Part shown: in pieces, positions 3,060 to 27,354 of the stretch
Position numbering within the stretch: position 1 is the stretch's first letter
How the letters are laid out: each line of letters starts with the position of its first letter
Assembly: GCA_964361075.1 (NCBI GenBank)
Contig: CAYHZL010000001.1
Coordinates: 1-62,969, forward strand
Length of the DNA: 62,969 nucleotides
From: an uncultured Chitinophagaceae bacterium
Lineage (GTDB): Bacteria; Bacteroidota; Ignavibacteria; UBA10030; UBA8401
Reading direction: 5' to 3'
Notes under the pieces: model-generated
Databases searched by the model: none
What the model was told of the DNA's origin: nothing
Seen by the model: the letters and a program-made list of their open reading frames with translations, nothing else
Program-made: the position numbers and the translations under genes

Positions 3060-6000
3060 TTACTTAACAATATTTCTTTCTTGTAGTTTTCTATATACCT
3101 CTGCGCCTAGATATGAAGCAACAACTTTTTGGAATGATGGATCATTCATATATCGAGCAAATATTTCTTCGTTTTGATCCATTCGCTCGATAAAAAGCGT
3201 ATCTAGCAAACTTTGGAAAACAAGGGCAAATTTATCTTGGGGATTAACTTTTTGTGCTTGTTGAATATTTGTATTCAACAACGCAGCTTCAACAAGTTGA
3301 TCAAAGAATAATTGATCCGCCTCTGTAAAATCAGTTCCGAAACGTTCATTGATTAAATAAATAAGTTTAGAAAGGGCTACCTGTGCTTCACGAACGAGAC
3401 CACTTCCAACTTCTTGAGGACCATCGAGAGGTTTCGCAATTCCATCTTTCAAACTGATTGAGCCTTCACTTATTTTTTGTAAACGATAATATTCAAGTTT
3501 TATTTCTTCATCAAAATTATATTGTACACTATTTCGTCGCTTCGGTAGTTTACGAATTAAATGTCGGATGAACGTATAACTTTTTTCTAAATCTGAATCT
3601 TGATAAGGTATTATTTGACTTAAAAAAGCATAGAGATTTCTAAATGCGCCAAATTTACCTCGTAAGAGTTCTGCTTCATTTTCATCTTTATCCATTAATT
3701 GTCGAAATCTATTTACCGCAGGATCAAGAACAGCATTCATAGTTTGGTGATCTAACGGGCTTTGACGCAGCTTAGGCTTAAAATATACCTCGCAAAACTT
3801 ATTTACTTCCTCTGCAAGATAAATACCAGAAGTATCCAATTCAGATTTTATTTCATATAACCGAGATGGTTCTACTTCTTCACCCATCTCCGCTCCCTCA
3901 TAATATTGTTTAAATGCTTCTTGTATTTCTTCTCGTTCATTTACAAAATCAAGAATAAATGTTTCTTCTTTTAACGGATGAACACGATTTAATCGTGATA
4001 ATGTTTGAACTACCTGTAATCCGGAAAGCCTTTTATCAACATACATAGTATGTAACAACGGCTGATCAAATCCTGTTTGATATTTTTCAGCAACTAACAA
4101 TACCTGATACTCACTTGATGAGAACTTATCTGGCAGTTCTTTTTGTTTTATCCCGTTGTTCATTCCTTCTTCTGTGTAACTTACATCTGATAATTTATCG
4201 TCTTGTACAGTTCCAGAAAATGCTACCAACGTTTTAATTGTATAGCCTTTTTCTTTGATATATAAATCAAAACTTTGCTTATATCGTACTGCTTCTAAAC
4301 GAGAACCTGTTACCACCATTGCTTTGGCTTTTCCACCAATCTTATGGCGAGTAAACGTATTAAAATGCTCAACCATAATTTCAGTTTTTTGAGCAATGTT
4401 GTATGGATGAAGTCGCATAAATCGTGTTAATGCTTTTGCCGCTTTCTTTCGCTCTACATTCGGATCATCTTCACTCGCTTTCAATAACTTGTAATATATT
4501 TTATAGGTTGTATAATTCTTCAAGACATCGATAATAAAATTTTCTTCTATTGCTTGATGCATTGTATATCTATGAGAAGGTTCTCCATTTTGTCCAAATA
4601 TTGCGAGAGTCTTATATTTGGGTGTGGCAGTAAAAGCAAAGAAACTAATATTATCTTGCTTCCCTCGTTTAGCCATACTCCGATATAGCTCTTCCCACTT
4701 CTCCGCTTGATCTTCTTCAGCTTTTTTCTTTGCCTCTTCAACTAAATCTTCTCCGCCTAAAACTTCTTTTAAATCAGTGGATGTTTCGCCTGACTGCGAA
4801 CTATGTGCTTCGTCAATAATTACCGCAAGTTTTCTTGTCGGTAAAACACCTGTGCTTTGTTCTCCTCGTTCTTCAGCTAATTTTATTATTTGCTTCGAGA
4901 CATGAGGAAATTTTTGCAGTGTTGTAATAATAATTGGTATGCGGTTTTCTAATGCCTCTGCAAGTTGGCGCGTATGTTCGTCAATTTTTTGCACGACACC
5001 TTGACGATGATCGAATTGATACACTGTATCCTGTAATTGCTGATCTAATACTACTCTATCAGTGACAACAACGACACTATCAAACACTCTTTCATTCTTG
5101 TCTGTATGAAGATTGCTTAAACGATGAGCAAGCCAACCAATGGTATTACTCTTCCCACTGCCAGCGGAATGTTCAATTAAATAATTATTTCCCGGACCAT
5201 CTACTCTTGCAGAATTTACTAAATAGTTAACTGCCTGAAGTTGATGATATCTCGGAAAGATCAAAGTTTCTTTTTTTATTTTCCGTCCGTCGTCAGTTCG
5301 TTTTTCTTCAATTTGTAAATGGATGAAACGCGCAAGTAGTTCAAGCAAACTATCCTTTTGTAAAACTTCTTCCCAAAGATAAGCTGTTTTGTATGTTCGT
5401 CCTTGAGGATCAATTGGATTTCCTGCCCCACCATTGCAACCTTTATTGAAAGGAATAAAATGCGTTGCACTTCCGGCAAGTCTCGTTGTCATAAAAACCG
5501 ATTCAGTATCTACGGCAAAATGCACAAGTGAACATCTCTTAAATTCAAATATTGGTTCGTGTTGGTCGCGGTCAAAACGATACTGATGGATTGCATTCTC
5601 CACAGTTTGACCAGTTAAAGGATTCTTCAACTCAATAGTAGCAATCGGAATTCCATTAAGACTAAGAACAACATCGAGCGAGTTTTTATTTCTTGTGCTA
5701 TAGTGTAACTGGCGGGTAATTCCTAATCGGTTTGCGGCATACCGTTCTTCAAGTTCCGGATTTAAACCGTGAGCAGCTTTAAAGTATGCTACCCTAAGTG
5801 TTCTTCCATAACATTTAAAACCATGGCGTAACGTTGCAAGACTTCCATTCGCATCCATCCATTTGCAGAGGTCATAAATTATCTGTTCCCCTGTTTTTTC
5901 TCCATGCAATGCTTCAAGCTTTGACCATTCTTTGAATTGGGTAGATTGAATAAACTGAATTACTTCGGTTGGAAATATTCCTTTTTCGGCATCATATAAA

Positions 6001-6110
6001 CTTTTTTCAATTGAAGTAAATCCATTATCAAGTAAAACTAATTCAATAACAGACTCAAAAGCTGCTTCGGAATATCGGTTTGGAGTTTGAACAGTTTCAT
6101 TTTGCGGCAT
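3060..6110 (-). CDS. hsdR: Type I restriction enzyme R subunit
   Basis: 1016 aa. It has an N-terminal nuclease-like D...ELK motif (DVVLSLNGIPIATIELK), Walker A AGSGKSNT, a DEAH box (IIDEAHSSQ) and a long helical C-terminal region. Its start overlaps the upstream gene by 14 nt. Confidence 0.93.
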   Translation of the reverse strand: MPQNETVQTPNRYSEAAFESVIELVLLDNGFTSIEKSLYDAEKGIFPTEVIQFIQSTQFKEWSKLEALHGEKTGEQIIYDLCKWMDANGSLATLRHGFKCYGRTLRVAYFKAAHGLNPELEERYAANRLGITRQLHYSTRNKNSLDVVLSLNGIPIATIELKNPLTGQTVENAIHQYRFDRDQHEPIFEFKRCSLVHFAVDTESVFMTTRLAGSATHFIPFNKGCNGGAGNPIDPQGRTYKTAYLWEEVLQKDSLLELLARFIHLQIEEKRTDDGRKIKKETLIFPRYHQLQAVNYLVNSARVDGPGNNYLIEHSAGSGKSNTIGWLAHRLSNLHTDKNERVFDSVVVVTDRVVLDQQLQDTVYQFDHRQGVVQKIDEHTRQLAEALENRIPIIITTLQKFPHVSKQIIKLAEERGEQSTGVLPTRKLAVIIDEAHSSQSGETSTDLKEVLGGEDLVEEAKKKAEEDQAEKWEELYRSMAKRGKQDNISFFAFTATPKYKTLAIFGQNGEPSHRYTMHQAIEENFIIDVLKNYTTYKIYYKLLKASEDDPNVERKKAAKALTRFMRLHPYNIAQKTEIMVEHFNTFTRHKIGGKAKAMVVTGSRLEAVRYKQSFDLYIKEKGYTIKTLVAFSGTVQDDKLSDVSYTEEGMNNGIKQKELPDKFSSSEYQVLLVAEKYQTGFDQPLLHTMYVDKRLSGLQVVQTLSRLNRVHPLKEETFILDFVNEREEIQEAFKQYYEGAEMGEEVEPSRLYEIKSELDTSGIYLAEEVNKFCEVYFKPKLRQSPLDHQTMNAVLDPAVNRFRQLMDKDENEAELLRGKFGAFRNLYAFLSQIIPYQDSDLEKSYTFIRHLIRKLPKRRNSVQYNFDEEIKLEYYRLQKISEGSISLKDGIAKPLDGPQEVGSGLVREAQVALSKLIYLINERFGTDFTEADQLFFDQLVEAALLNTNIQQAQKVNPQDKFALVFQSLLDTLFIERMDQNEEIFARYMNDPSFQKVVASYLGAEVYRKLQERNIVK

Positions 6111-6690
6111 AGGATTTTAACCAAGAAAATTCATTAAGACGTTTCCACGCAATTTTGATATGTTCAGGTTTAAATGTTTTTCTCTTATAGTCACTCCAAC
6201 CATGAACAGCTTTTACAGCAAGATCGCTATCGGAAGTTATTTTTGAATCTTCAACGCCAAGCCAATGCACAGTGGAAAGAAGTTCAAGTCCGTACGGTGT
6301 TTCAAAACCTTCAATAAAATCCGTTACTGTTTCTAATCGTACCTGGGTTGTTACATTGTCTTTCAAAATTTCTTTTGCTTCTTCAACAGCATGTGGAAGC
6401 AATTGTATCAACGCCTCTCGGGTTCTGTCACCATATCCGGAAATAAAATGTCCGTCAAGTCTTTGTAACCAATGTTGAAGGTTTTCCGCATACGGTCCGT
6501 ATTTATGTTTTACAAATTGTAAATTCATCGGTTCGCCGATAACTTGCAAAAAATAAACTAACTTTTGTATTTCAAGCATCGAAAGACGATATCCGGGAAT
6601 ACAGTACCGTTCAATTGTCAAGATCAATACCGTAATGAAAGATTGTTCTATTGAATATTTTTTTTGATCTTTTATTGAAATATTTTTCAT
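6097..6690 (-). CDS. Panacea/DUF4065 (SocA-like antitoxin domain)-like protein
   Basis: 197 aa. The segment LSMLEIQKLVYFLQVIGEPMNLQFVKHKYGPY fits my recollection of the Panacea core pattern (K-L-x-K-L-h-Y ... G-x-P ... F ... Y-G-P). Needs HMM confirmation. Confidence 0.5.
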   Translation of the reverse strand: MKNISIKDQKKYSIEQSFITVLILTIERYCIPGYRLSMLEIQKLVYFLQVIGEPMNLQFVKHKYGPYAENLQHWLQRLDGHFISGYGDRTREALIQLLPHAVEEAKEILKDNVTTQVRLETVTDFIEGFETPYGLELLSTVHWLGVEDSKITSDSDLAVKAVHGWSDYKRKTFKPEHIKIAWKRLNEFSWLKSYAAK

Positions 6691-6700
6691 CCAGCGGTAC

Positions 6701-7210
6701 CTAGTTTTCTAATATAAAACGAGTTTCTAATTTTCTTAGCATTTCAAAAGTATCCCGATACTGTACATTAAATGCCACACATACGTTAGGAATAGGAACT
6801 TTCTTTCTCGCTTCCGGAGCAAGAACTTCGTGAGTAACAAGAATCATTTTTTTCGCTTTTGCATAAGCTATTAACCACGCATCAACACCGTTAACAAATT
6901 CGGCTTTTGCTTCCTGACTAAATTGTTGGTTTTGTACCCAACGAACTACTTCAGCAAAGCAATTAACAACGGCATTTTCGTTTGTAATTCCGAAAAATGT
7001 ATCAGGCAGTATGGAGGTTGCCCACTCAGTCAGATCATCTTTTCCACGTTCCAACTCGTTTTTCACACGATCTATACTGCATAGGCGTGTATTTGTTTGA
7101 TGAAGAATCAATGCGTCCCAAAATCCCGGACAAAGATCAAATGCGTAGTAACGGCGTTTCGCTTCAATAAAAACGTTTGCGTCAAGAAGATATGTTTCAT
7201 GATTTGGCAT
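6701..7210 (-). CDS. DUF4411 family PIN-like putative nuclease
   Basis: 169 aa. The N-terminus YLLDANVFIEAKRRYYAFDLCPGFWDAL matches the remembered DUF4411 signature (LD-x-N-x-FI-x-AK-x-x-YY-x-FD-x-x-P-x-FW). It lies 3 nt downstream of an ImmA/IrrE gene, which is the usual partner. Confidence 0.6.
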   Translation of the reverse strand: MPNHETYLLDANVFIEAKRRYYAFDLCPGFWDALILHQTNTRLCSIDRVKNELERGKDDLTEWATSILPDTFFGITNENAVVNCFAEVVRWVQNQQFSQEAKAEFVNGVDAWLIAYAKAKKMILVTHEVLAPEARKKVPIPNVCVAFNVQYRDTFEMLRKLETRFILEN

Positions 7211-7213
7211 TTT

Positions 7214-8362
7214 TTATTTTCTTAATTCAAGCGATTCGGAATATTTATCAAACGTGTTTCCATAAAGACCTGTCAGTTGATACGCTTCACGATAGAGTAA
7301 ACGTCCCTCCTTCGCCGCGCGCATTACAGCGTATGCAAATCTTTTTCCAACACGAACATTTTGAGTATTGTAAAAATCCCCGCCATCAGATTTTTTCAAC
7401 GCCTTGCGTCTTTCATCTTTTAAATAATTTTCATAGAAAACGATGAAACGATTACGGGTGATAAGACCGAGATCAATGGCACGGCGAGCGATGACGAGCG
7501 TACTTACTTTAAATTGCCGGGCAAGCGTTTGAAAAGGATCATCGGTGCGTATGGCTTGTTGCCAAGATGCACGTAATTCTCTTTCCGGAACTAAAAACTC
7601 TGCTGCTACATGATTACAAAACTTTTCCACCTCATTATCAATCGCTTCTAAAGCATGTAAGTTAAATACACCACTTTGACCGAGCCAAACATGACCCAAT
7701 TCGTGCGCAATAGTAAACATTTGTGCAGACTTATAATCTGCCCCATTGATAAAAATAAGTGGCGCATATTCATCCTTAAGGATAAAACCGCGGAATTCTT
7801 CCGTATCGAGTTTACGGGAATTATTATTCTCAACAACACTGGTAATTGTAATTAAAATTCCGGCACGTTCCACCGATTCTCTTAATGCTGTCAGTGCTTC
7901 AGTCCATGTAGAATATTGATTCGCCCATCCTTCGTTCATCCCGAGAACTCTGCGAATACTTACAACAGTTTCGGCTATTCCTGTAGTAAGTGTAACAGAA
8001 CCAACAAACGACAACGGATATTCTTTCTCTTCAATAAGAAAATCTCTCATCCAGTTCTGTCTTCGCTGCATTATTTGAACGGTTTCTAAGAGATTCGGAC
8101 TTGGACGAAGAACCGGTTGATCTCTTATTGTTCGAAAGTCAGGAATTGGCAACCGGTCATCCGGAGGCTCAGATAAGAAAAAAAAGCCGAGCGGTGTTAG
8201 TGTCTTCTTCGCAAGATTTTCAAGTTGACGCAGTGTTGGTTGGAGATTACCATTTTCCCACTCCGCAAACTTAGGAAATCGTTCCATTAAAGCATCAACT
8301 GTAAGTCCGGCACGCTCGCGCGCCCATCGAATAAGTTCTCTATTTATTGCAACTGTACTCAT
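7214..8362 (-). CDS. XRE-type HTH fused to an ImmA/IrrE (COG2856, M78) zinc metallopeptidase
   Basis: 382 aa. It has an N-terminal HTH (LIRWARERAGLTVDALMERF...LRQLENLAKKT) and a central HEXXH motif (TIAHELGHVWLG). Confidence 0.8.
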   Translation of the reverse strand: MSTVAINRELIRWARERAGLTVDALMERFPKFAEWENGNLQPTLRQLENLAKKTLTPLGFFFLSEPPDDRLPIPDFRTIRDQPVLRPSPNLLETVQIMQRRQNWMRDFLIEEKEYPLSFVGSVTLTTGIAETVVSIRRVLGMNEGWANQYSTWTEALTALRESVERAGILITITSVVENNNSRKLDTEEFRGFILKDEYAPLIFINGADYKSAQMFTIAHELGHVWLGQSGVFNLHALEAIDNEVEKFCNHVAAEFLVPERELRASWQQAIRTDDPFQTLARQFKVSTLVIARRAIDLGLITRNRFIVFYENYLKDERRKALKKSDGGDFYNTQNVRVGKRFAYAVMRAAKEGRLLYREAYQLTGLYGNTFDKYSESLELRK

Positions 8363-8404: not shown

Positions 8405-9517
8405 CTAATTTATCTCCAACTTTCCTGTTACCGCTTCCGAGATTAATGATGATCGGCGTTCGTTCAACAATTCAATTGATTGTGCGGTTTTTCTTTTAAT
8501 AGATTCAATTTTTTGCAATTGAAAATTAAGAACTGAAACAATTTCATTTTGTTCATCATAAGGTGGTATGGGAATATGAAGATTTTTAATAGCATCTACC
8601 GAAAGCCCAGGTTGAGCGGCAGATTGAGAATATTGATTCAAATTCATTATTCGAAGAAGTTCTCCCAGCCAAGTAACATTTTGTTGACCTTTCAGCGTAA
8701 CAACAACCGCATGCTCAGAAGCCCAAAATTTCCCGTCAGCATAGTTTATGTTACCACAAAGTGCTCCTTGTCTTCCTATAAGCACATAATCACCTTCATA
8801 CAAAAAAGAATTTGTATATCCTCGTAAACCATTACCACCATAAACAGGATAATCTCCTTCTTCATGAATATCTTCTGGAGAGATGAAATCACCGCTTTGT
8901 AAAGACGCAATATATTTCATCTTCTTCATTTCCCAATGTTCCGGAATCTTTCCTAACCACTCAATACCAGAGTCTTTATAATTAACATTGGGATTAATAC
9001 CACGAGTAACAGCATTTGTTATTATTGCTCTACGTTTTTCTTCTAACAATTCGAGTTGTCGTTCTTTGGCGTTTATGAGTGAATCAATTCGAACGGTTTC
9101 ACGGTCGAGATAATTTGCAATGGCTTGTTGTTCAGAAAGCGTCGGGACTAATATATATTTTTCATATGCTGTCTCTCGACTTAACCCTGGAACAGCTGTT
9201 TCATTAGAATTACGATCTAATTCTAATGTTTGTATTACATGATAAATCCAACGTAAATTATTTTTAGTTGTAGAATTATCAATGAAAAATGTTGTATCTG
9301 AGGCAAAACAAGGCTCGGAAGTCCAATTAACTTTACCGTAAGATCCTTTACGGCCAATTATAATAGCAGGTGAACTTGTATTTGATTTACCAAATCGAGT
9401 AAACGATCCATTTGAACCATAGACCAAAAACTCACCGTCGCCAGAATTATCTGTGGGTAAAGCATCTCCATATGCAAACGATGTTACATATTTTAAACGC
9501 ATTCTTTGCAGATTCAC
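8405..9517 (-). CDS. hsdS: Type I R-M specificity subunit
   Basis: 370 aa with two target-recognition halves. Each half is followed by a conserved helical spacer (LSEQQAIANYLDRETVRIDSLI... and YDEQNEIVSVLNFQLQKIESIK...). It overlaps hsdM by 4 nt. Confidence 0.85.
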   Translation of the reverse strand: MNLQRMRLKYVTSFAYGDALPTDNSGDGEFLVYGSNGSFTRFGKSNTSSPAIIIGRKGSYGKVNWTSEPCFASDTTFFIDNSTTKNNLRWIYHVIQTLELDRNSNETAVPGLSRETAYEKYILVPTLSEQQAIANYLDRETVRIDSLINAKERQLELLEEKRRAIITNAVTRGINPNVNYKDSGIEWLGKIPEHWEMKKMKYIASLQSGDFISPEDIHEEGDYPVYGGNGLRGYTNSFLYEGDYVLIGRQGALCGNINYADGKFWASEHAVVVTLKGQQNVTWLGELLRIMNLNQYSQSAAQPGLSVDAIKNLHIPIPPYDEQNEIVSVLNFQLQKIESIKRKTAQSIELLNERRSSLISEAVTGKLEIN

Positions 9518-11532
9518 TTCGCTACCTCTGTCAACAAACTTAATATTTCTTTTTCAACTTTTTTTAGTTCAACATCAATTGTATTTAATGATCGAGGAGT
9601 AATATATTTATAAAAATATCTATTAAAGTTTATTTCATATCCAATTTTATCTTTACTTTTATCCATCCACGCATCTGGTACGTGCGGCAATACTTCGCGT
9701 TTAAAATATTCTTCGATATTTTCTTTTAATGGAATATTCTCATTATCTCGTAAGTCGCTGTCTGCTTCATATACCGCTTGAAGATAAATTATTTGAGTTT
9801 CTTTCTTTTTATTTTTTTTTATAATCTCTTTTTGTAGCACCGGTTCGGCATCCGGATTTTTATCAGTAAAAACATCCCGAAATAATTTAGCCCAATTCGC
9901 ACTCCATCTTGATTCTCTCGATGTCAGAACATTTTCAATCATTAACAAAACAATATTCCAATCTAATTGAACCTCTCTTCCAATCTGTGCATCTATTGCC
10001 TGCACATCATCCAGCAACTCCGGCAACGCATCAAGAAAACGAGATTTACGATCCAATGTCATCTGGTATGCTAAACGTAATGGTCGCTCTACGGTAACTC
10101 GCGTATATCCAAAATCTGCATTATCAAATATTTTTGAAGTTTCCGTAACAGCAAATGTACCAAATTCATGTACGCTCGTAGCAATATCATCCTCTGTAAT
10201 TTCTCTCCGTTTGTATCCCAAACTGCGACGCATCTGTTTCCAGCGTGCACGCGCATCAATAAGTTGTATTTTGCCTTTGCGTTTATCATCTTTTCTGTTT
10301 GTTACAATCCAAATATATGTTCCAATTCCGGTGTTGTAAAACATCTGTTCCGGCAACGCGATAATTGCTTCGAGATAATCTTTCTCAATAATCCATTTTC
10401 GTATATCACTTTCGCCTGAACCCGCACCACCAGTAAAAAGTGGTGAGCCGTTAAAAACAATGGCAAGTCGTGAACCATATTTTTTTTCTTTAATATTCAC
10501 ATCTTCAAATTTTGAAACCATGTGCTGCAAAAACAATAACGAGCCATCGTTCACTCGCGGAACACCGGCTCCGAATCTTCCGTCCCATCGCCGTTTCTCA
10601 TGTTCCCGTACAACTTCTTTTTGTTGCCTTTTCCAGTCAACACCAAATGGAGGATTTGCAAGAAGATAATCGAATTTTTCTCCTTCAAACTTATCATCGA
10701 CTAATGAATCACCAAAACGGATGTTATCATCGTTGGTATTGTGGTCAACTTGTTTTATCAGCATGTCGGAGGCAGCGGTAGCAAATGCGCGTTTATTATA
10801 ATCCTGTCCGTATACATACAAATTTGCCTGTGGATGATGATCGCGTAAATAGTTTTGTGCTTCCGCCAGCATTCCTCCTGTTCCGCATGCCGGATCAAGA
10901 AGTTTTCGTACTGTCCCCGGTTTAGACAAAAGCTCATCATCATTAATGAATAACAAATTCACCATCAAACGAATGACTTCTCTCGGTGTAAAGTGGTCTC
11001 CGGCTGTTTCATTTGCCGCTTCGTTAAACCGTCTGATAAGATCTTCAAAAATTAATCCCATCTGAATATTATCAACAACGCCGGGATGCAAATCTAAATC
11101 ACTAAATTTTAAGACAACAGGATAGAGAATATCTGATTCGCGCATTTTCTCAATCTCGTTTTCAAATTCAAAGTAATCAAAAATCGTTCGTACATTTTTT
11201 GAAAATCCTTTGATGTATGAAGTGAGATGTTTTTCAATATGATCGGGGTCGCCTTTGAGTTTTTCAAAATTGAGCGGCGAGTGATTATGAAAACGTTGTT
11301 CCGCACTTTTGTTCAGAATTTTATCGAGAGCATCCTCATTAAGTTTACCGCTCTCTTTTCTTTTTGCATGTTCTTTTAGAACTTTCTCTTTTGTTGAGGC
11401 AAGCACACAATCAAACCGGCGCAAGACAGTCATAGGTAGCATCACGCGTTCGTATTGCGGAGGCCTGTATGGTCCGCGTAAAAGATCGGCAGTCTGCCAG
11501 ATAAATTGAGAGAGTTCAGAATGTGTAGGCAC
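9514..11532 (-). CDS. hsdM: Type I R-M N6-adenine DNA methyltransferase subunit
   Basis: 672 aa with SAM motif LDPACGTGGML and catalytic LLANPPFGVDW. GTG start. The C-terminal extension is long compared with roughly 500-aa HsdM proteins. Confidence 0.93.
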   Translation of the reverse strand: MPTHSELSQFIWQTADLLRGPYRPPQYERVMLPMTVLRRFDCVLASTKEKVLKEHAKRKESGKLNEDALDKILNKSAEQRFHNHSPLNFEKLKGDPDHIEKHLTSYIKGFSKNVRTIFDYFEFENEIEKMRESDILYPVVLKFSDLDLHPGVVDNIQMGLIFEDLIRRFNEAANETAGDHFTPREVIRLMVNLLFINDDELLSKPGTVRKLLDPACGTGGMLAEAQNYLRDHHPQANLYVYGQDYNKRAFATAASDMLIKQVDHNTNDDNIRFGDSLVDDKFEGEKFDYLLANPPFGVDWKRQQKEVVREHEKRRWDGRFGAGVPRVNDGSLLFLQHMVSKFEDVNIKEKKYGSRLAIVFNGSPLFTGGAGSGESDIRKWIIEKDYLEAIIALPEQMFYNTGIGTYIWIVTNRKDDKRKGKIQLIDARARWKQMRRSLGYKRREITEDDIATSVHEFGTFAVTETSKIFDNADFGYTRVTVERPLRLAYQMTLDRKSRFLDALPELLDDVQAIDAQIGREVQLDWNIVLLMIENVLTSRESRWSANWAKLFRDVFTDKNPDAEPVLQKEIIKKNKKKETQIIYLQAVYEADSDLRDNENIPLKENIEEYFKREVLPHVPDAWMDKSKDKIGYEINFNRYFYKYITPRSLNTIDVELKKVEKEILSLLTEVAK

Positions 11533-11695: not shown

Positions 11696-11837
11696 CTACG
11701 TAGTTCGCGCTGAAAAAGTCATTGCGAGCGAGTGTTTTTTATGAGCGAAGCAATCTTTTCTTCAAATTTTTAAGATTGCTTCGGCAAAAAACGCCTCGCA
11801 ATGACGCACAAAGAGTATTTCAGTGAGAACTACGTAG
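11696..11837. repeat. Nested-palindrome element, family E (ends CTACGTAGTTC...GAACTACGTAG)
   Basis: About 20-bp terminal inverted repeats enclose the nested stems GTCATTGCGAG/CTCGCAATGAC and GAAGCAATCT/AGATTGCTTC. An inverted second copy lies at 27191-27354 and a relative at 32070-32230. Confidence 0.7.
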
Positions 11838-11883: not shown

Positions 11884-11922
11884 CAACAACAAACCTCACA
11901 GGCGCAGTAATCACCTGTGAGG
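11884..11922 (-). terminator. Rho-independent terminator
   Basis: A 9-bp perfect stem (CCTCACAGG at 11894-11902, CCTGTGAGG at 11914-11922) is followed on the minus strand by TTTGTTGTTGT. It lies 26 nt downstream of the small ORF 11948-12124. Confidence 0.65.
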
Positions 11923-11947
11923 TCTTGTACAACGAACACATACATTA

Positions 11948-12218: not shown

Positions 12219-13415
12219 TTATTTCAACTTCGCTTTCAACTCATTCATATCAATCACCGTATCAAGGGTAATAAAAGTTTTTTCTAATTTTTTCCCTTCG
12301 GCAGAAATATTTTCGTGCGCTGTAAAAACACGTAAGTCGCCAATATCCATAATCTTTCCCTTACCATCTTGTTCATAATTAATTGCAATATCTGCAACAA
12401 GAGGTGCAGTGCCGTTTGCAAAAGTAATCGTTGCGTTGTGAATGAGAAGATCAAACAACGTCTTTGCGTTAAGCGGAAGTTTTTCATATTCACTAATGGG
12501 TGTCTGTTCGTACGCGCGTGTTGCAATCGAATGCAGCGCAGCAAGAAACATCACACAATTTAATTTGCGGATGTACATCTTTGCCGGATCGTTATACCAG
12601 CCGCCCGACTCGATAAGAATTGTACTCGTTCCCCACTTCTGCACATTATCACCAAACGCACGCGGTTCAAACGCATCATCATAGCGGGAAATATTTTCAG
12701 GAATAAATGGCTTTAATATGCCGACAAGTTCCGCTGTAATTTTTTTTGCGCGAAGACGAACAGCATTATCCGTTTTGGCATAATCGAATGATGGTGCAAG
12801 CAATGCAATGGTTGAAACTTTTCCTCCTTCGCCTGTTGAATAACGCGGGTCTTGATCGTGCAAGTTAAATCCGATTTCCGGATTATATGTATCACGAATA
12901 GATTTTAAAAGACGAGCTTCCGGCGTTTGCAGGCTCACCGCATCGCGGTTCATATCAATCCCTTGCGCTGTGCGGCGCGTCCATCGTTCGGCGCCGTCAG
13001 GATTCAACATTGGAATAATGAGCAGCGTCAGTTCCGATAAAATTTTCTGTACTTCCGGCGACGATTTATGTGCATTGATATACGAAAGCATATCCATCAA
13101 ACCCATCGTTGCCGTCGCTTCATCGCCGTGCATTTGCGACCACATGAATACTTTTGTTTTGCCTGTGCCGAGCGTCAGCAAATTAATAGAGCGCCCTTCG
13201 GATGATTCACCAATTTTTTCAACGGAAAGAATTCCGGCTAAATTTTGTTTATACGAATCTATCCATGCCGTTAAATCGGCATGTTTAAATTTGTTCGTTG
13301 TAATGCGATTGTCTTTATATGATTCGTACGTAGAATAGAGAGTGTGAGAAAATTGTGAATATGTGTTCATGGTGTTCATCAAAAATATAAGTGAATAAAG
13401 AAAATATTTTTTCAT
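12219..13415 (-). CDS. M14-family zinc carboxypeptidase-like protein, secreted
   Basis: 398 aa with an N-terminal signal-like segment and a zinc HxxE motif (WSQMHGDEATA). Confidence 0.75.
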   Translation of the reverse strand: MKKYFLYSLIFLMNTMNTYSQFSHTLYSTYESYKDNRITTNKFKHADLTAWIDSYKQNLAGILSVEKIGESSEGRSINLLTLGTGKTKVFMWSQMHGDEATATMGLMDMLSYINAHKSSPEVQKILSELTLLIIPMLNPDGAERWTRRTAQGIDMNRDAVSLQTPEARLLKSIRDTYNPEIGFNLHDQDPRYSTGEGGKVSTIALLAPSFDYAKTDNAVRLRAKKITAELVGILKPFIPENISRYDDAFEPRAFGDNVQKWGTSTILIESGGWYNDPAKMYIRKLNCVMFLAALHSIATRAYEQTPISEYEKLPLNAKTLFDLLIHNATITFANGTAPLVADIAINYEQDGKGKIMDIGDLRVFTAHENISAEGKKLEKTFITLDTVIDMNELKAKLK

Positions 13416-25877: not shown

Positions 25878-27194
25878 ATGAAAAGTCATTCTATTCAAAC
25901 TCGATTATTGATTGTGCTGCTTGTTGCATTTCTTCTGCGCCTCTATGTTGCAGCAGCAACGCGCATGCCGCTGCAATCTGATTCGCTCGAATATTATTCG
26001 TTAGCAACAAATCTTGCCCAACATCATCAGTATTCGTTTGAAAACACAATCACTGCCTACAGACCGCCCGCGTATTCATTTTTTCTTTCAGCCGTGCTTA
26101 CCATTTCGCAATCAGAAACATCTGCAAGAGTAGCGCAGGCTTTTTTAGAAACAATAAACTGTCTTTTACTCTTTGCACTCGGCAGAAAATTTATTTCTGA
26201 ACACGCAGGCATTTGGGCTGCTGTGTTATGGGCTTTTTTTCCAGTCAGCATTGTGCAATCAGTTTTTTTATTATCGGAATCATTGTTCACTGCAATTGCA
26301 CTGGGAATGGTTTTGCTCCTTTCTTCCAATAGCTTTTCTGGAAAGCAAAAACCTTTGCTGCTGGGCGTATTGTTTGGATGCACAATTTTAACAAAACCAC
26401 AATCTGCGTTGTTCATTCTGCCGATTATGATGTTTGCAAAAATTCGGCTTCCACAAAAAAAACAATTACTCCGTTATGGCTTTCAATGTATTCTCGGAAT
26501 AATTTTAGTTGTATCGCCCTGGGTCGTAAGAAATGTTTTAGTCTTTGGCAAACCATTGATTTCTACAAATGGAGGCGTAAATTTTTGGATTGGACATAAT
26601 GAAGAAGCAAACGGCTCATATAAAATTCCCAAAATTAATCCGTTAGATATTATTACGAATGAAATTGAGCGAAGTAATGCAGGATATCAACTTGGATGGC
26701 AATTCATTCGCACTGAGCCGAAAAAAGAAGCTGTACTTTTGATAAAAAAGTTAGGTTATTTTTTTTCATCGCAAACTCCGCTGGTCATCGCATTGCACAA
26801 GACAACAGAAGGATTTCCTTCGAACAGTTCATATAAAGATAAAGCACATCAATCTTCTTTGTGGATGTTGTTTCTGTTTAATGCTCAATATATGCTCTAT
26901 CTGCTCTGCGGTACAGCGGGGTTTATTGCAGCATACAACAGGAAGGAAAGCACTCACAATCTTTTTCTTTGTAGCTTTCTTTTGTGGATACTATTACACC
27001 TTATGTATTTCACGATGTCGCGATACAATTTTCCTGCGCTTCCTTTTTTTGTTTTATGGTGTGTACATTTGTATCACAACCGAGCGCAGGTACGATTAAT
27101 AAGCAAACGTAAAATTATAGCTATTATCTTTTGCACTCTTGGATTGTTGACGTTGTGGGGAATTGAGCTTGCAATAATTATTTCAAACAACTAA
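25878..27194 (+). CDS. GT39/ArnT-like (GT-C fold) membrane glycosyltransferase
   Basis: 438 aa and polytopic. The N-terminal loop motif (DSLEYYSLATNLAQHHQY...YRPPAYSFFLS) is typical of PMT_2/ArnT-like enzymes. Confidence 0.6.
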   Translation: MKSHSIQTRLLIVLLVAFLLRLYVAAATRMPLQSDSLEYYSLATNLAQHHQYSFENTITAYRPPAYSFFLSAVLTISQSETSARVAQAFLETINCLLLFALGRKFISEHAGIWAAVLWAFFPVSIVQSVFLLSESLFTAIALGMVLLLSSNSFSGKQKPLLLGVLFGCTILTKPQSALFILPIMMFAKIRLPQKKQLLRYGFQCILGIILVVSPWVVRNVLVFGKPLISTNGGVNFWIGHNEEANGSYKIPKINPLDIITNEIERSNAGYQLGWQFIRTEPKKEAVLLIKKLGYFFSSQTPLVIALHKTTEGFPSNSSYKDKAHQSSLWMLFLFNAQYMLYLLCGTAGFIAAYNRKESTHNLFLCSFLLWILLHLMYFTMSRYNFPALPFFVLWCVHLYHNRAQVRLISKRKIIAIIFCTLGLLTLWGIELAIIISNN

Positions 27195-27354
27195 TTAGTT
27201 CTCACTGAAATACTCTTTGTGCGTCATTGCGAGGCGTTTTTTTGCCGAAGTTCCAAAGGAATGCCTTCGGCACAATCTTAAAAATTTGAAGAAAAGATTG
27301 CTTCGCTCATAAAAAACACTCGCTCGCAATGACTTTTTCAGTGGGAACTAATTA
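27191..27354. repeat. Nested-palindrome element, family E copy 2, between convergent genes
   Basis: It is the inverted counterpart of 11696-11837, with an extra inserted module (TTCCAAAGGAATGCCTTCGGC). Its terminal repeats CTAATTAGTTC / GAACTAATTA contain the stop codons of both convergent genes (TAA at 27192-27194 on plus, TAA at 27354-27352 on minus). Confidence 0.7.

What the first reader, a model, noticed from the sequence alone, without database searches (positions are those of the whole stretch)
6097..8362. Three-gene toxin/antitoxin-like cassette (HTH-ImmA/IrrE protease + DUF4411 PIN-like protein + Panacea/DUF4065-like protein) nested between hsdS and hsdR of a Type I R-M operon
Seen in sequence: the minus-strand order is hsdM (11532-9514), hsdS (9517-8405), an HTH+HEXXH protein (8362-7214), a DUF4411-like protein (7210-6701), a 197-aa Panacea-like protein (6690-6097) and hsdR (6110-3060). 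The spacings are a 4-nt overlap, a 42-nt gap, a 3-nt gap, a 10-nt gap and a 14-nt overlap with hsdR. The three extra genes therefore look co-transcribed and partly translationally coupled with the restriction subunit. Established knowledge: COG2856 ImmA/IrrE proteases with XRE HTH domains are stress- or phage-responsive switches and frequent partners of DUF4411. Panacea domains are promiscuous antitoxin modules. In the E. coli prr locus the anticodon nuclease PrrC occupies this same hsdS-hsdR slot and is kept latent by the Type I enzyme until a phage anti-restriction peptide appears. Inference: this may be a PrrC-style second-line (abortive infection or anti-anti-restriction) module wired to a Type I R-M complex, but built from a different tripartite parts list. 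I do not know of this three-part combination, or its embedding in an hsd operon, having been characterised.
Basis: partly seen in the sequence, partly recalled or inferred. Interest (0 to 1): 0.8.

Follow-up and report, generated by a model that had tools for sequence, protein, structure and literature searches.

The report
VapBC52-like toxin cassette plus darG relic
An intact Type I restriction operon carries, between hsdS and hsdR, a known kind of two-gene toxin-antitoxin defence module, and the supposed third gene is the leftover back half of a darG antitoxin gene from an earlier occupant of the slot, so the locus is a neat record of cassette swapping, not a new three-part system.

Summary
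Two of the three domain calls hold: an HTH plus Peptidase_M78/IrrE protein (7214-8362) and a full-length DUF4411 PIN-like protein (6701-7210). The third call fails. ORF 6097-6690 has no Panacea hit. It is the C-terminal, DarT-binding half of DarG, with no macrodomain and no darT anywhere in the window.

The peptidase-DUF4411 pair is a fixed two-gene unit (adjacent in 80 of 80 related loci). It is homologous to M. tuberculosis VapBC52, which has a solved complex (PDB 9vzy). In VapBC52, ssDNA triggers antitoxin self-cleavage, which frees a tRNA-cutting toxin that protects against phage.

The pair recurs in the hsdS-hsdR slot: 9 of 45 well-flanked loci, and all three nearest relatives have hsd genes alongside. 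DarTG occupies the same slot in related operons. The DarG fragment accompanies the pair only here (0 of 160 surveyed loci). The closest relative, L167, instead keeps a darT 5' fragment fused to an hsdS tail upstream of the same cassette. This points to the cassette having displaced darTG.

The verdict is a new member of a known kind, of modest interest. Whether the undecayed DarG fragment still does anything is open.

The parts
9514..11532 (-). hsdM, Type I methyltransferase subunit (672 aa)
   Evidence: Pfam N6_Mtase 2.6e-58 and HsdM_N 2.5e-26. PADLOC MTase_I 2e-265. DPACGTG at residue 213 and NPPF at 293.
8405..9517 (-). hsdS, specificity subunit (370 aa, two target-recognition halves)
   Evidence: Pfam Methylase_S 2.5e-32 in two stretches. 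PADLOC Specificity_I 5e-83. Overlaps hsdM by 4 nt.
7214..8362 (-). VapB52-like / RmrA-like antitoxin-sensor: N-terminal HTH plus IrrE/ImmA (M78) zinc peptidase (382 aa)
   Evidence: Peptidase_M78 1e-19. PADLOC RmrA 8e-17 and capP 1e-16. PDB 9vzy_A (VapB52) 4e-25 over residues 8-353. DFR at residues 75-77, HELGH at 220-224, E246 and the only Cys, C249. A homologue lies immediately upstream of DUF4411 in 80 of 80 loci.
6701..7210 (-). DUF4411 PIN-like toxin (169 aa), VapC52 homologue
   Evidence: Pfam DUF4411 1e-52, profile positions 1-159 of 159. PDB 9vzy_D and 9vzz_A, both 'DUF4411 family protein', at 0.009 and 0.037. Acidic residues D10, D25, D47, E52, D58, D110 and E128 are invariant across 19 relatives.
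6097..6690 (-). 'darG: 3' half of a darG gene. It encodes only the DarT-binding C-terminal domain (197 aa). There is no macrodomain and no darT. The first ~24 residues are not DarG-like.
   Evidence: No Pfam hit. NCBIfam and PADLOC DarG match the C-terminal half only. PDB 7yk3_B 2e-21. AF2 model (pLDDT 84.8) matches only 7yk3 B/D, TM 0.73-0.76. The nearest relatives are ~343-aa macro-containing DarG proteins, 52-68% identical. No DarT or macrodomain was found in the window by tblastn.
3060..6110 (-). hsdR, restriction/translocase subunit (1016 aa). Its start overlaps the 'darG stop by 14 nt.
   Evidence: HSDR_N, SWI2_SNF2, ResIII and T1R_D3. TIGR00348 7e-62, below its curated cut-off. ELK at 160, GSGKS at 317, DEAH at 433. 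74-78% identical to the HsdR of operons that carry the same cassette (L007, L016, L167).

Best explanation
This is an intact Type I R-M operon (hsdM-hsdS-...-hsdR). Its hsdS-hsdR slot holds two things.

1. A two-gene VapBC52-type (RosmerTA-like) toxin-antitoxin / abortive-infection cassette. It consists of an HTH-IrrE/ImmA zinc-peptidase antitoxin-sensor (7214-8362) and a DUF4411 PIN-like RNase toxin (6701-7210).

2. A relic of the slot's previous occupant: the 3' half of darG (6097-6690). This encodes only the DarT-binding C-terminal domain.

Shown here:
- The domain identities.
- The obligate pairing of peptidase and DUF4411.
- Recurrent residence of that pair, and separately of darTG, in the same slot of related hsd operons.
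- The absence of darT and of a macrodomain in the window.
- A complementary darT relic in the closest relative.

Inferred by homology to M. tuberculosis VapBC52: the antitoxin holds two toxin protomers inactive. ssDNA or DNA damage arising during infection activates the peptidase. The peptidase cuts itself at the conserved FR motif (F76-R77 here). The freed PIN toxin cleaves host and/or phage tRNAs and arrests the infected cell.

Inferred from anatomy: the cassette rides on the hsd transcript as a second line of defence. The darG fragment persists either because the swap was recent or because hsdR translation starts inside its 3' end.
For: ORFs and domains.

The pair is a fixed unit:
- A peptidase homologue lies directly upstream of DUF4411 in 80 of 80 genome loci from many phyla.

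Homology to a characterised system:
- The window peptidase matches PDB 9vzy_A at 4e-25 with DFR, HEXXH and the third-ligand Glu aligned.
- The window DUF4411 protein matches 9vzy_D at 0.009.
- 9vzy is VapBC52: 1:2 antitoxin:toxin stoichiometry, ssDNA-induced self-cleavage, tRNA cleavage and phage resistance (PMC13273310).

The slot is recurrent:
- hsd genes flank the pair in 13 of 80 loci, 9 of the 45 with at least 3 kb on both sides.
- All three nearest DUF4411 relatives have hsd genes alongside. L165 and L168 have hsdM-hsdS-peptidase-DUF4411 followed by hsdR (for L168 by tblastn-level similarity). L167 has an HsdR 78% identical to the window's.

The third ORF is DarG's C-terminal domain.

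DarTG uses the same slot:
- hsdM-hsdS-darT-darG-hsdR in L086 and L087, the same with extra DNA before hsdR in L139, and partial versions in L111, L115 and L123. PMC8883491 also reports DarTG inside Type I R-M operons.

The triple is unique to this window:
- 0 of 80 DUF4411 loci have a DarG hit, and 0 of 80 DarG loci have the pair.

Complementary relic:
- L167 has a 119-aa chimera, DarT residues 1-78 (4e-25) fused in frame to an HsdS C-terminal tail (4e-8). It sits directly upstream of the same cassette (peptidase 72%, DUF4411 69% identical).

Other orphan or decaying DarG C-terminal fragments exist: L162 is split by a stop codon, and L173, L003 and P0044 are further cases.
Against: - The DarG fragment is an intact 197-codon ORF. 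It keeps every column that is invariant among 12 DarG relatives.
- It shows no rate acceleration against its sister P0002: 9.7 versus 9.9 unique changes. It also scores inside the range of full-length DarG proteins, 263 bits versus a median of 271. So 'relic' is not demonstrated by decay. The fragment may be recent, or it may be under selection. The outgroups were chosen by similarity to the window, which mildly biases this test.
- No locus carrying both relics (darT'-cassette-'darG) was found, so the displacement scenario is reconstructed, not observed.
- Identity to VapBC52 is low. The toxin match is only E 0.009, so mechanistic transfer is inference.
- The hsd census used phmmer with the window's own Hsd proteins. 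It is a lower bound and is biased towards this Type I family.
- Co-transcription, toxicity and defence were not tested.
Confidence: 0.78

Rival explanations
1. This is a true tripartite system, the first reader's idea corrected for domain identity. The DarG C-terminal domain has been recruited as a third component of the peptidase/DUF4411 module. One possible role follows from its reported function as an ssDNA mimic: it could tune or trigger the ssDNA-activated IrrE-type peptidase. It could also act as a second antitoxin for the PIN toxin.
For: - The ORF is intact and tightly packed: a 10-nt gap upstream and a 14-nt overlap with hsdR.
- There is no sequence decay.
- The DarG C-terminal domain is reported to mimic negatively charged ssDNA (PMC11481870 citing Deep et al. 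2023).
- The VapB52 peptidase is activated by ssDNA (PMC13273310).
Against: - The combination occurs only in this window and in a 99.99% identical contig from the same groundwater population.
- 0 of 80 DUF4411 loci and 0 of 80 DarG loci show it.
- The three nearest cassette relatives lack it, and there DUF4411 abuts or overlaps hsdR directly.
- The N-terminal ~24 residues have lost the conserved RAAL segment of DarG.
- L167 shows that the same cassette landed in a darTG locus.
Confidence: 0.05
2. The fragment is a working orphan antitoxin, independent of the neighbouring cassette. The stand-alone DarG C-terminal domain would bind and block a DarT encoded elsewhere in the genome or arriving on mobile elements (anti-addiction or immunity role).
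For: - The C-terminal domain is the direct DarT-binding inhibitor in DarTG.
- DarT paired with a macro-less C-terminal-only DarG exists (L004), and L102 carries a similar 180-aa C-terminal-only ORF.
- Orphan C-terminal ORFs occur in unrelated contexts (L173 next to recA, L003).
- The window ORF shows no decay.
- Phage-borne orphan DarG-like antitoxins are listed in the literature search (PMC11825919, PMC13309987; titles and abstracts only).
Against: - No DarT in the 63-kb window. The rest of the genome is unseen.
- The N-terminal helix segment conserved in DarG is altered.
- Other orphans include clear pseudogenes (L162).
- Without the macrodomain, ADP-ribosylated DNA cannot be repaired.
Confidence: 0.12
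3. The embedded pair is mainly a regulator or addiction module for the R-M operon and not an antiphage effector. The HTH-peptidase would act like a controller (C) protein that times hsdR expression, or the TA pair would simply stabilise the hsd island.
For: - The VapB52 N-terminal domain resembles the R-M controller protein C.Csp231I (PMC13273310).
- The pair sits immediately upstream of hsdR, with DUF4411 and hsdR overlapping in relatives.
- TA modules are proposed to stabilise defence islands (PMC5499597).
Against: - Most occurrences of the pair have no detected hsd neighbour: 36 of 45 well-flanked loci. The pair therefore works on its own.
- VapBC52 confers phage resistance outside any hsd context.
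- The PIN acidic residues are invariant, which argues for a catalytic toxin.
Confidence: 0.05

Closest known systems
VapBC52 of Mycobacterium tuberculosis (PDB 9vzy complex, 9vzz toxin; NAR 2026, PMC13273310)
   Same: - Same two-gene architecture: an HTH N-terminal domain plus an IrrE-type HEXXH peptidase antitoxin, followed by a DUF4411 PIN toxin.
- The window antitoxin aligns over residues 8-353 (4e-25) with the DFR motif, HEXXH and the Glu ligand conserved.
- The toxin belongs to the same Pfam family.
   Different: - Sequence identity is low; the toxin match is only E 0.009.
- The window antitoxin is 382 aa against 415 aa, and the alignment stops about 29 residues before its end, so the toxin-occluding C-terminal domain is not confirmed.
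- The paper passages read here do not mention an hsd context for VapBC52, whereas the window pair is embedded between hsdS and hsdR.
- No biochemical data exist for this clade.
RosmerTA (RmrT/RmrA) antiphage toxin-antitoxin systems
   Same: - The antitoxin is an HTH plus ImmA/M78 peptidase protein. The window protein hits 16 PADLOC RmrA profiles, best 8e-17.
- Association of the ImmA hub antitoxin with PIN-like toxins is noted in NetFlax (PMC10440598).
   Different: - The DUF4411 toxin matches no PADLOC model, RmrT included.
- The one RosmerTA toxin whose mechanism was read here is membrane-depolarising.
- PADLOC profiles carry no curated cut-off.
DarTG (DarT ADP-ribosyltransferase / DarG macrodomain antitoxin), including DarTG embedded in Type I R-M operons
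   Same: - ORF 6097-6690 is homologous to the DarG C-terminal DarT-binding domain: 7yk3_B 2e-21, TM 0.73-0.76, and up to 68% identity to full-length DarG.
- It sits exactly where darG sits in hsdM-hsdS-darT-darG-hsdR operons (L086, L087).
   Different: - There is no macrodomain and no darT, so it is not a DarTG system.
- The N-terminal ~24 residues are not DarG-like.
PrrC/EcoprrI and other hsd-embedded defence genes (RloC, TgvAB, 'guilt-by-embedding' candidates)
   Same: - A second defence module lies inside a Type I R-M operon (PMC11411939; bioRxiv 10.1101/2024.01.29.577857).
Only PrrC's near-exclusive embedding in Type I R-M systems was read here.
   Different: - No PrrC-type family appeared among the hits to the three ORFs.
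- The pair carries its own antitoxin-sensor, so latency need not depend on the restriction enzyme.
- Most homologous pairs have no detected hsd neighbour.
Panacea (SocA_Panacea / DUF4065) antitoxin domain
   Same: Only the general idea: a stand-alone helical antitoxin-type domain that neutralises by direct binding.
   Different: - No Pfam hit of any kind, Panacea included, even at E<=10.
- Sequence and predicted fold match DarG's C-terminal domain and nothing else significant in the PDB.
- The Panacea paper cites DarG only as an unrelated example of dual neutralisation (PMC8832971).

Membership tests
Panacea / SocA_Panacea (PF13274, DUF4065) | Significant match to the Pfam Panacea profile | tested here: not met
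   hmmscan of the 197-aa ORF against Pfam-A returned no families at E<=0.01 or at E<=10.
DarG antitoxin | N-terminal macrodomain (PF01661) that removes ADP-ribose from DNA | tested here: not met
   No Macro hit. The alignment shows the whole macrodomain is missing. tblastn with a macrodomain finds nothing in the window.
DarG antitoxin | C-terminal DarT-binding domain | tested here: met
   NCBIfam DarG positions 165-338 at 5e-48; PADLOC DarG at 3e-47; PDB 7yk3_B at 2e-21; Foldseek TM 0.73-0.76.
DarTG system | Adjacent darT (PF14487) toxin gene | tested here: not met
   Two DarT queries gave no hit better than E 0.4 anywhere in the 62,969-bp window. The upstream neighbour is DUF4411.
DUF4411 (PF14367) PIN-like nucleases | Full-length profile match with the conserved acidic residues retained | tested here: met
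   E 1e-52, residues 7-165 on profile positions 1-159 of 159. D10, D25, D47, E52, D58, D110 and E128 are invariant in 19 sequences. Which of them are catalytic is inferred.
VapBC52-type TA (HTH-IrrE peptidase antitoxin plus DUF4411 toxin) | Antitoxin with an HTH N-terminal domain, HEXXH plus Glu zinc site, and an FR self-cleavage motif at the domain junction | tested here: met
   Aligned to 9vzy_A at 4e-25. DFR at 75-77, HELGH at 220-224 and E246 are aligned with the VapB52 motifs (motif definitions from PMC13273310).
VapBC52-type TA (HTH-IrrE peptidase antitoxin plus DUF4411 toxin) | Toxin gene immediately downstream of the antitoxin gene, as a conserved pair | tested here: met
   3-nt gap in the window. 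The pair is adjacent in 80 of 80 related loci.
VapBC52-type TA (HTH-IrrE peptidase antitoxin plus DUF4411 toxin) | ssDNA-induced antitoxin self-cleavage, 1:2 complex, tRNA cleavage by the toxin | not testable with these tools
   These are biochemical properties. They are known only for the M. tuberculosis homologue.
RosmerTA | RmrA-type antitoxin paired with a recognised RmrT toxin | tested here: inconclusive
   RmrA profiles hit at up to 8e-17, but DUF4411 matches no PADLOC model.
Type I restriction-modification system | HsdM, HsdS and HsdR with their diagnostic domains and motifs in one operon | tested here: met
   Pfam and PADLOC hits. NPPF, the DPACGTG AdoMet motif, ELK, GSGKS and DEAH are present. 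The TIGR hsdM and hsdR hits are below the equivalog cut-offs, so this is a divergent family.
PrrC-type hsd-embedded anticodon nuclease | Homology to the PrrC ABC-ATPase/anticodon-nuclease protein | tested here: not met
   No PrrC-type family was listed among the Pfam, PADLOC or NCBIfam hits to the three embedded ORFs. Only the genomic position is shared.
PrrC-type hsd-embedded anticodon nuclease | Kept latent by binding the Type I enzyme and released by an anti-restriction factor | not testable with these tools
   Requires biochemistry or genetics.

The most novel reading that the evidence does not exclude
The macrodomain-less DarG C-terminal domain, reported to act as an ssDNA mimic, has been co-opted as a modulator of the neighbouring IrrE-type peptidase, whose M. 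tuberculosis homologue is activated by ssDNA. That would create a three-part sensor-toxin circuit translationally coupled to hsdR. It would be an instance of an antitoxin domain being re-used across unrelated TA families inside a restriction operon.
Probability: 0.04. Interest if true: 0.75.

Novelty: new member of a known kind. Interest (0 to 1): 0.3.

Why it matters
The result corrects an attractive but wrong annotation. The supposed Panacea third component is a darG remnant.

It places the embedded pair in a family whose mechanism is now experimentally described (VapBC52). It adds two modest observations that I did not find stated in the papers I read:
- This VapBC52-type pair repeatedly occupies the hsdS-hsdR slot of one Type I R-M family, across several phyla.
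- The same slot alternately holds darTG. Two independent loci preserve opposite-end relics of darTG around the same incoming cassette.

This is direct sequence evidence that the inside of a Type I operon behaves as an exchange site for abortive-infection cassettes. It supports the published 'guilt-by-embedding' logic. It also gives a natural test case for whether an orphan DarG C-terminal domain retains any function.

Tried and rejected
- Panacea identity was rejected by Pfam at E<=10 and by fold search.
- A DarT or macrodomain elsewhere in the window: none found.
- A first census script wrote wrong DarT and Macro queries, taking coordinates from every record in the file. The DarT and Macro hits are artefacts and were discarded. 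The search was redone.
- A mosaic or crossover signal inside hsdR was sought by 100-residue sliding identity against nine relatives. There is no clear breakpoint. The N-terminal 100 residues are simply less conserved in every comparison.
- Comparison of the darG-hsdR and DUF4411-hsdR junctions across relatives did not discriminate between scenarios.
- The promoter and terminator scan matched shuffled expectation and is uninformative. The host is probably not a sigma-70-consensus organism.
- No direct or inverted repeats flank the cassette, so there is no hint of a site-specific mechanism.
- Contig L171 diverges from the window at position 6537, inside the DarG fragment, into AT-rich sequence with no match. 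It is a low-coverage 1.2-kb contig and probably an assembly chimera. It was not used as evidence.
- Decay tests on the DarG fragment found no decay. Its relic status therefore rests on context, not on degeneration.
- The host organism was not identified. The nearest HsdR relatives are Bacteroidota and Syntrophales MAGs, and an identical contig comes from a Hainich groundwater metagenome.

Full report
1. Observation

- hsdM, 9514-11532
- hsdS, 8405-9517
- a 382-aa protein, 7214-8362
- a 169-aa protein, 6701-7210
- a 197-aa protein, 6097-6690
- hsdR, 3060-6110

The spacings are a 4-nt overlap, a 42-nt gap, a 3-nt gap, a 10-nt gap and a 14-nt overlap. The junction sequences were read.

Profile searches confirm an intact Type I system. 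HsdM has N6_Mtase and HsdM_N. HsdS has two Methylase_S halves. HsdR has HSDR_N, SWI2_SNF2 and T1R_D3. The NPPF, ELK, GSGKS and DEAH motifs are present. The 382-aa protein is a Peptidase_M78/IrrE protein (1e-19) with a weak N-terminal HTH. The 169-aa protein is a full-length DUF4411 (1e-52).

No convincing terminator interrupts the run of genes, but the scan equals shuffled expectation. Co-transcription is therefore plausible and not shown.

2. The third ORF is not Panacea

The 197-aa ORF has no Pfam hit, even at E<=10. It does match DarG, but only the C-terminal half of the DarG profiles:
- PADLOC DarG, 3e-47, profile positions 166-327 of 329.
- NCBIfam antitoxin_DarG, 5e-48, profile positions 165-338 of 338.
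- PDB 7yk3_B, the C-terminal domain of M. tuberculosis DarG in its complex with DarT, 2e-21.

An AlphaFold2 model (pLDDT 84.8) matches only 7yk3 chains B and D in the PDB (E 6e-9, TM 0.73-0.76). Every other hit has E above 1.

In the 5.8-billion-protein search, the nearest relatives (52-68% identity) are almost all ~343-aa proteins with a macrodomain. The alignment shows that the window ORF lacks the entire macrodomain and linker. Its first ~24 residues have lost the conserved 'RAAL' segment. Homology begins around 'ERYCIPGYRLS'.

tblastn finds no DarT and no macrodomain anywhere in the window. The ORF is therefore the 3' half of a darG gene.

3. The other two genes are a known two-gene unit

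Eighty genome loci encode DUF4411 relatives (47-64% identity, many phyla). In every one of them a homologue of the 382-aa peptidase lies immediately upstream. This pairing was already described as a predicted three-component TA system (HTH, DUF955 protease, PIN) by Matelska et al. 2017 (PMC5499597).

The window peptidase matches PDB 9vzy chain A (4e-25, residues 8-353). The window DUF4411 protein matches 9vzy chain D (0.009). 9vzy and 9vzz are M. tuberculosis VapBC52 and VapC52 (PMC13273310). That paper reports:
- One VapB52 binds two VapC52.
- ssDNA activates the IrrE-type peptidase, which cleaves its own N-terminal domain at a conserved FR motif.
- VapC52 cleaves tRNAs, including phage D29 tRNAs.
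- The system confers phage resistance.

The window protein keeps DFR (75-77), HELGH (220-224) and the third ligand E246 in the aligned positions. The window toxin keeps the invariant acidic residues.

PADLOC also scores the peptidase as RmrA, the RosmerTA antitoxin (8e-17), and as CapP (1e-16). It has no model for DUF4411.

4. Is the hsd embedding recurrent?

Yes, for the pair. Using the window's own Hsd proteins as phmmer queries (a lower bound):
- 13 of 80 loci have hsd genes alongside.
- 9 of the 45 loci with at least 3 kb on both sides do.
- 11 of the 61 loci with at least 3 kb downstream have hsdR.

The order hsdM-hsdS-peptidase-DUF4411-hsdR appears in Nitrospirota, Syntrophales, Opitutia, Acidobacteriota, Bryobacterales and others.

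All three nearest DUF4411 relatives (64-69% identity) have hsd genes alongside:
- L165: hsdM, two ORF6N genes and a 79-aa ORF, hsdS, peptidase, DUF4411, then a 1016-aa hsdR.
- L168: hsdM, hsdS, peptidase, DUF4411, then an hsdR-like ORF that runs to the contig end.
- L167: peptidase, DUF4411, then an hsdR whose product is 78% identical to the window's.

The window's HsdR is 74-78% identical to those of L007, L016 and L167. In these relatives DUF4411 abuts or overlaps hsdR directly.

That defence genes sit inside Type I operons is published:
- PIN TA systems in Type I operons (PMC5499597).
- TgvAB (PMC11411939).
- The 'guilt-by-embedding' survey (bioRxiv 10.1101/2024.01.29.577857).

5. Where the darG fragment came from

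A metagenome scan with a C-terminal-domain-only alignment returned 80 loci. Of these, 75 have macrodomain plus C-terminal domain and 62 have a detectable DarT. None has the peptidase-DUF4411 pair.

DarTG occupies the very same slot, hsdM-hsdS-darT-darG-hsdR, in L086 and L087. L139 has the same order with extra DNA before hsdR. L111, L115 and L123 show it partially. The HsdR proteins of these loci are 44-50% identical to the window's. This agrees with the literature on DarTG inside Type I R-M operons (PMC8883491).

Conversely, none of the 80 DUF4411 loci contains any DarG, DarT or macrodomain hit. The triple is thus unique to this window. The only other instance is a 99.99% identical contig from the same groundwater population.

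The most telling locus is L167, the closest relative of the cassette. Directly upstream of its peptidase gene is a 119-aa ORF. This ORF is DarT residues 1-78 (56% identity, 4e-25) fused in frame to an HsdS C-terminal tail (4e-8).

So one locus keeps the 5' end of darT and the other keeps the 3' end of darG, around the same incoming cassette, next to closely related hsdR genes. The simplest reading is that an 'hsdS-peptidase-DUF4411 segment displaced darTG in this operon family and left different scars. I did not find an intermediate carrying both scars.

6. Is the fragment dead?

This cannot be decided. In favour of a live or recent gene:
- It is an intact ORF.
- It keeps all 43 columns that are invariant across 12 DarG relatives.
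- It shows no acceleration relative to its sister P0002 (9.7 versus 9.9 lineage-specific changes).
- It scores within the range of full-length DarG proteins (263 bits versus a median of 271). The caveat is that the outgroups were selected by similarity to the window.

Comparable fragments elsewhere point both ways:
- Macro-less DarG C-terminal ORFs occur with DarT (L004), and L102 carries a similar 180-aa ORF.
- They occur as orphans (L173 beside recA, L003, P0044).
- They occur as obvious pseudogenes (L162) and as a DarG split by a stop codon (L149).

The possibilities that remain are a recent relic, a relic retained because hsdR initiates inside its 3' end, or a working orphan anti-DarT protein.

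One speculative link is worth recording. The DarG C-terminal domain is reported to mimic ssDNA, and the VapB52 peptidase is ssDNA-activated. The census gives no support for a conserved functional triple, so I rate this reading at about 4%.

7. Verdict

- Observation: partly confirmed. The anatomy is right and one of the three domain calls is wrong.
- Interpretation: partly supported. A recurrent TA-type cassette does sit in the hsd slot, but it has two genes, it is homologous to a characterised system, and its PrrC-like coupling to the restriction enzyme is untested.
- Novelty: a new member of a known kind. The cassette-replacement footprint is the only feature I did not find described.
- Interest: 0.3.

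Noticed in passing
window 11696-11837 and 27191-27350: There are two copies of a ~140-160-bp element bounded by 29-nt inverted repeats, which makes it MITE-like. One copy sits in the hsdM upstream intergenic region. The 29-nt arm occurs twice in the window, against 0 expected by chance.
   Followed up: partly
window 11891-11925 (minus strand): A strong terminator-like hairpin (14 pairs, 7 of them GC) lies between the M14 peptidase gene (12219-13415) and hsdM. It probably marks the upstream boundary of the hsd transcription unit.
   Followed up: no
L167 114-473: A chimeric 119-aa ORF: DarT residues 1-78 fused in frame to an HsdS C-terminal tail, directly upstream of the peptidase-DUF4411-hsdR genes. 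This is a recombination scar.
   Followed up: yes
L096 6263-6820 and L099 1163-1717: A short (~185-aa) M78/ImmA-like ORF lies immediately upstream of darT-darG in two metagenome loci. This is a possible, separate ImmA-DarTG association.
   Followed up: no
L013 10142-11326: An additional 394-aa gene occupies the slot between DUF4411 and hsdR in a Nitrospira MAG. From its sequence it looks like an ATPase, but it was not scanned against any profile library. It shows that the slot can hold further cargo.
   Followed up: partly
L165 5546-6560: Two ORF6N-domain genes and a 79-aa ORF lie between hsdM and hsdS in the operon of a close relative. This is a second insertion site within the same operon family.
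   Followed up: no
L003 1089-2888; L173 3607-4158; L162 8013-8540; L149 3756-4826: Other macro-less or broken DarG C-terminal ORFs were seen. L003 follows RadC, DUF3800 and a 144-aa ORF. L173 is an orphan beside recA. L162 is a pseudogene split by a stop codon in what looks like a cyanobacterial contig. L149 is a DarG split into macrodomain and C-terminal ORFs by a stop codon.
   Followed up: partly
L171 1080-1183 (equivalent to window 6537 and beyond): A low-coverage 1.2-kb contig from the same groundwater site is identical to the window up to position 6537, inside the DarG fragment. It then switches to unrelated AT-rich sequence. It is either an assembly chimera or a rare variant.
   Followed up: partly
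P0077 (203 aa): A DarG homologue that keeps the first ~25 macrodomain residues and then jumps straight to the C-terminal domain. It looks like an in-frame deletion of the macrodomain.
   Followed up: no
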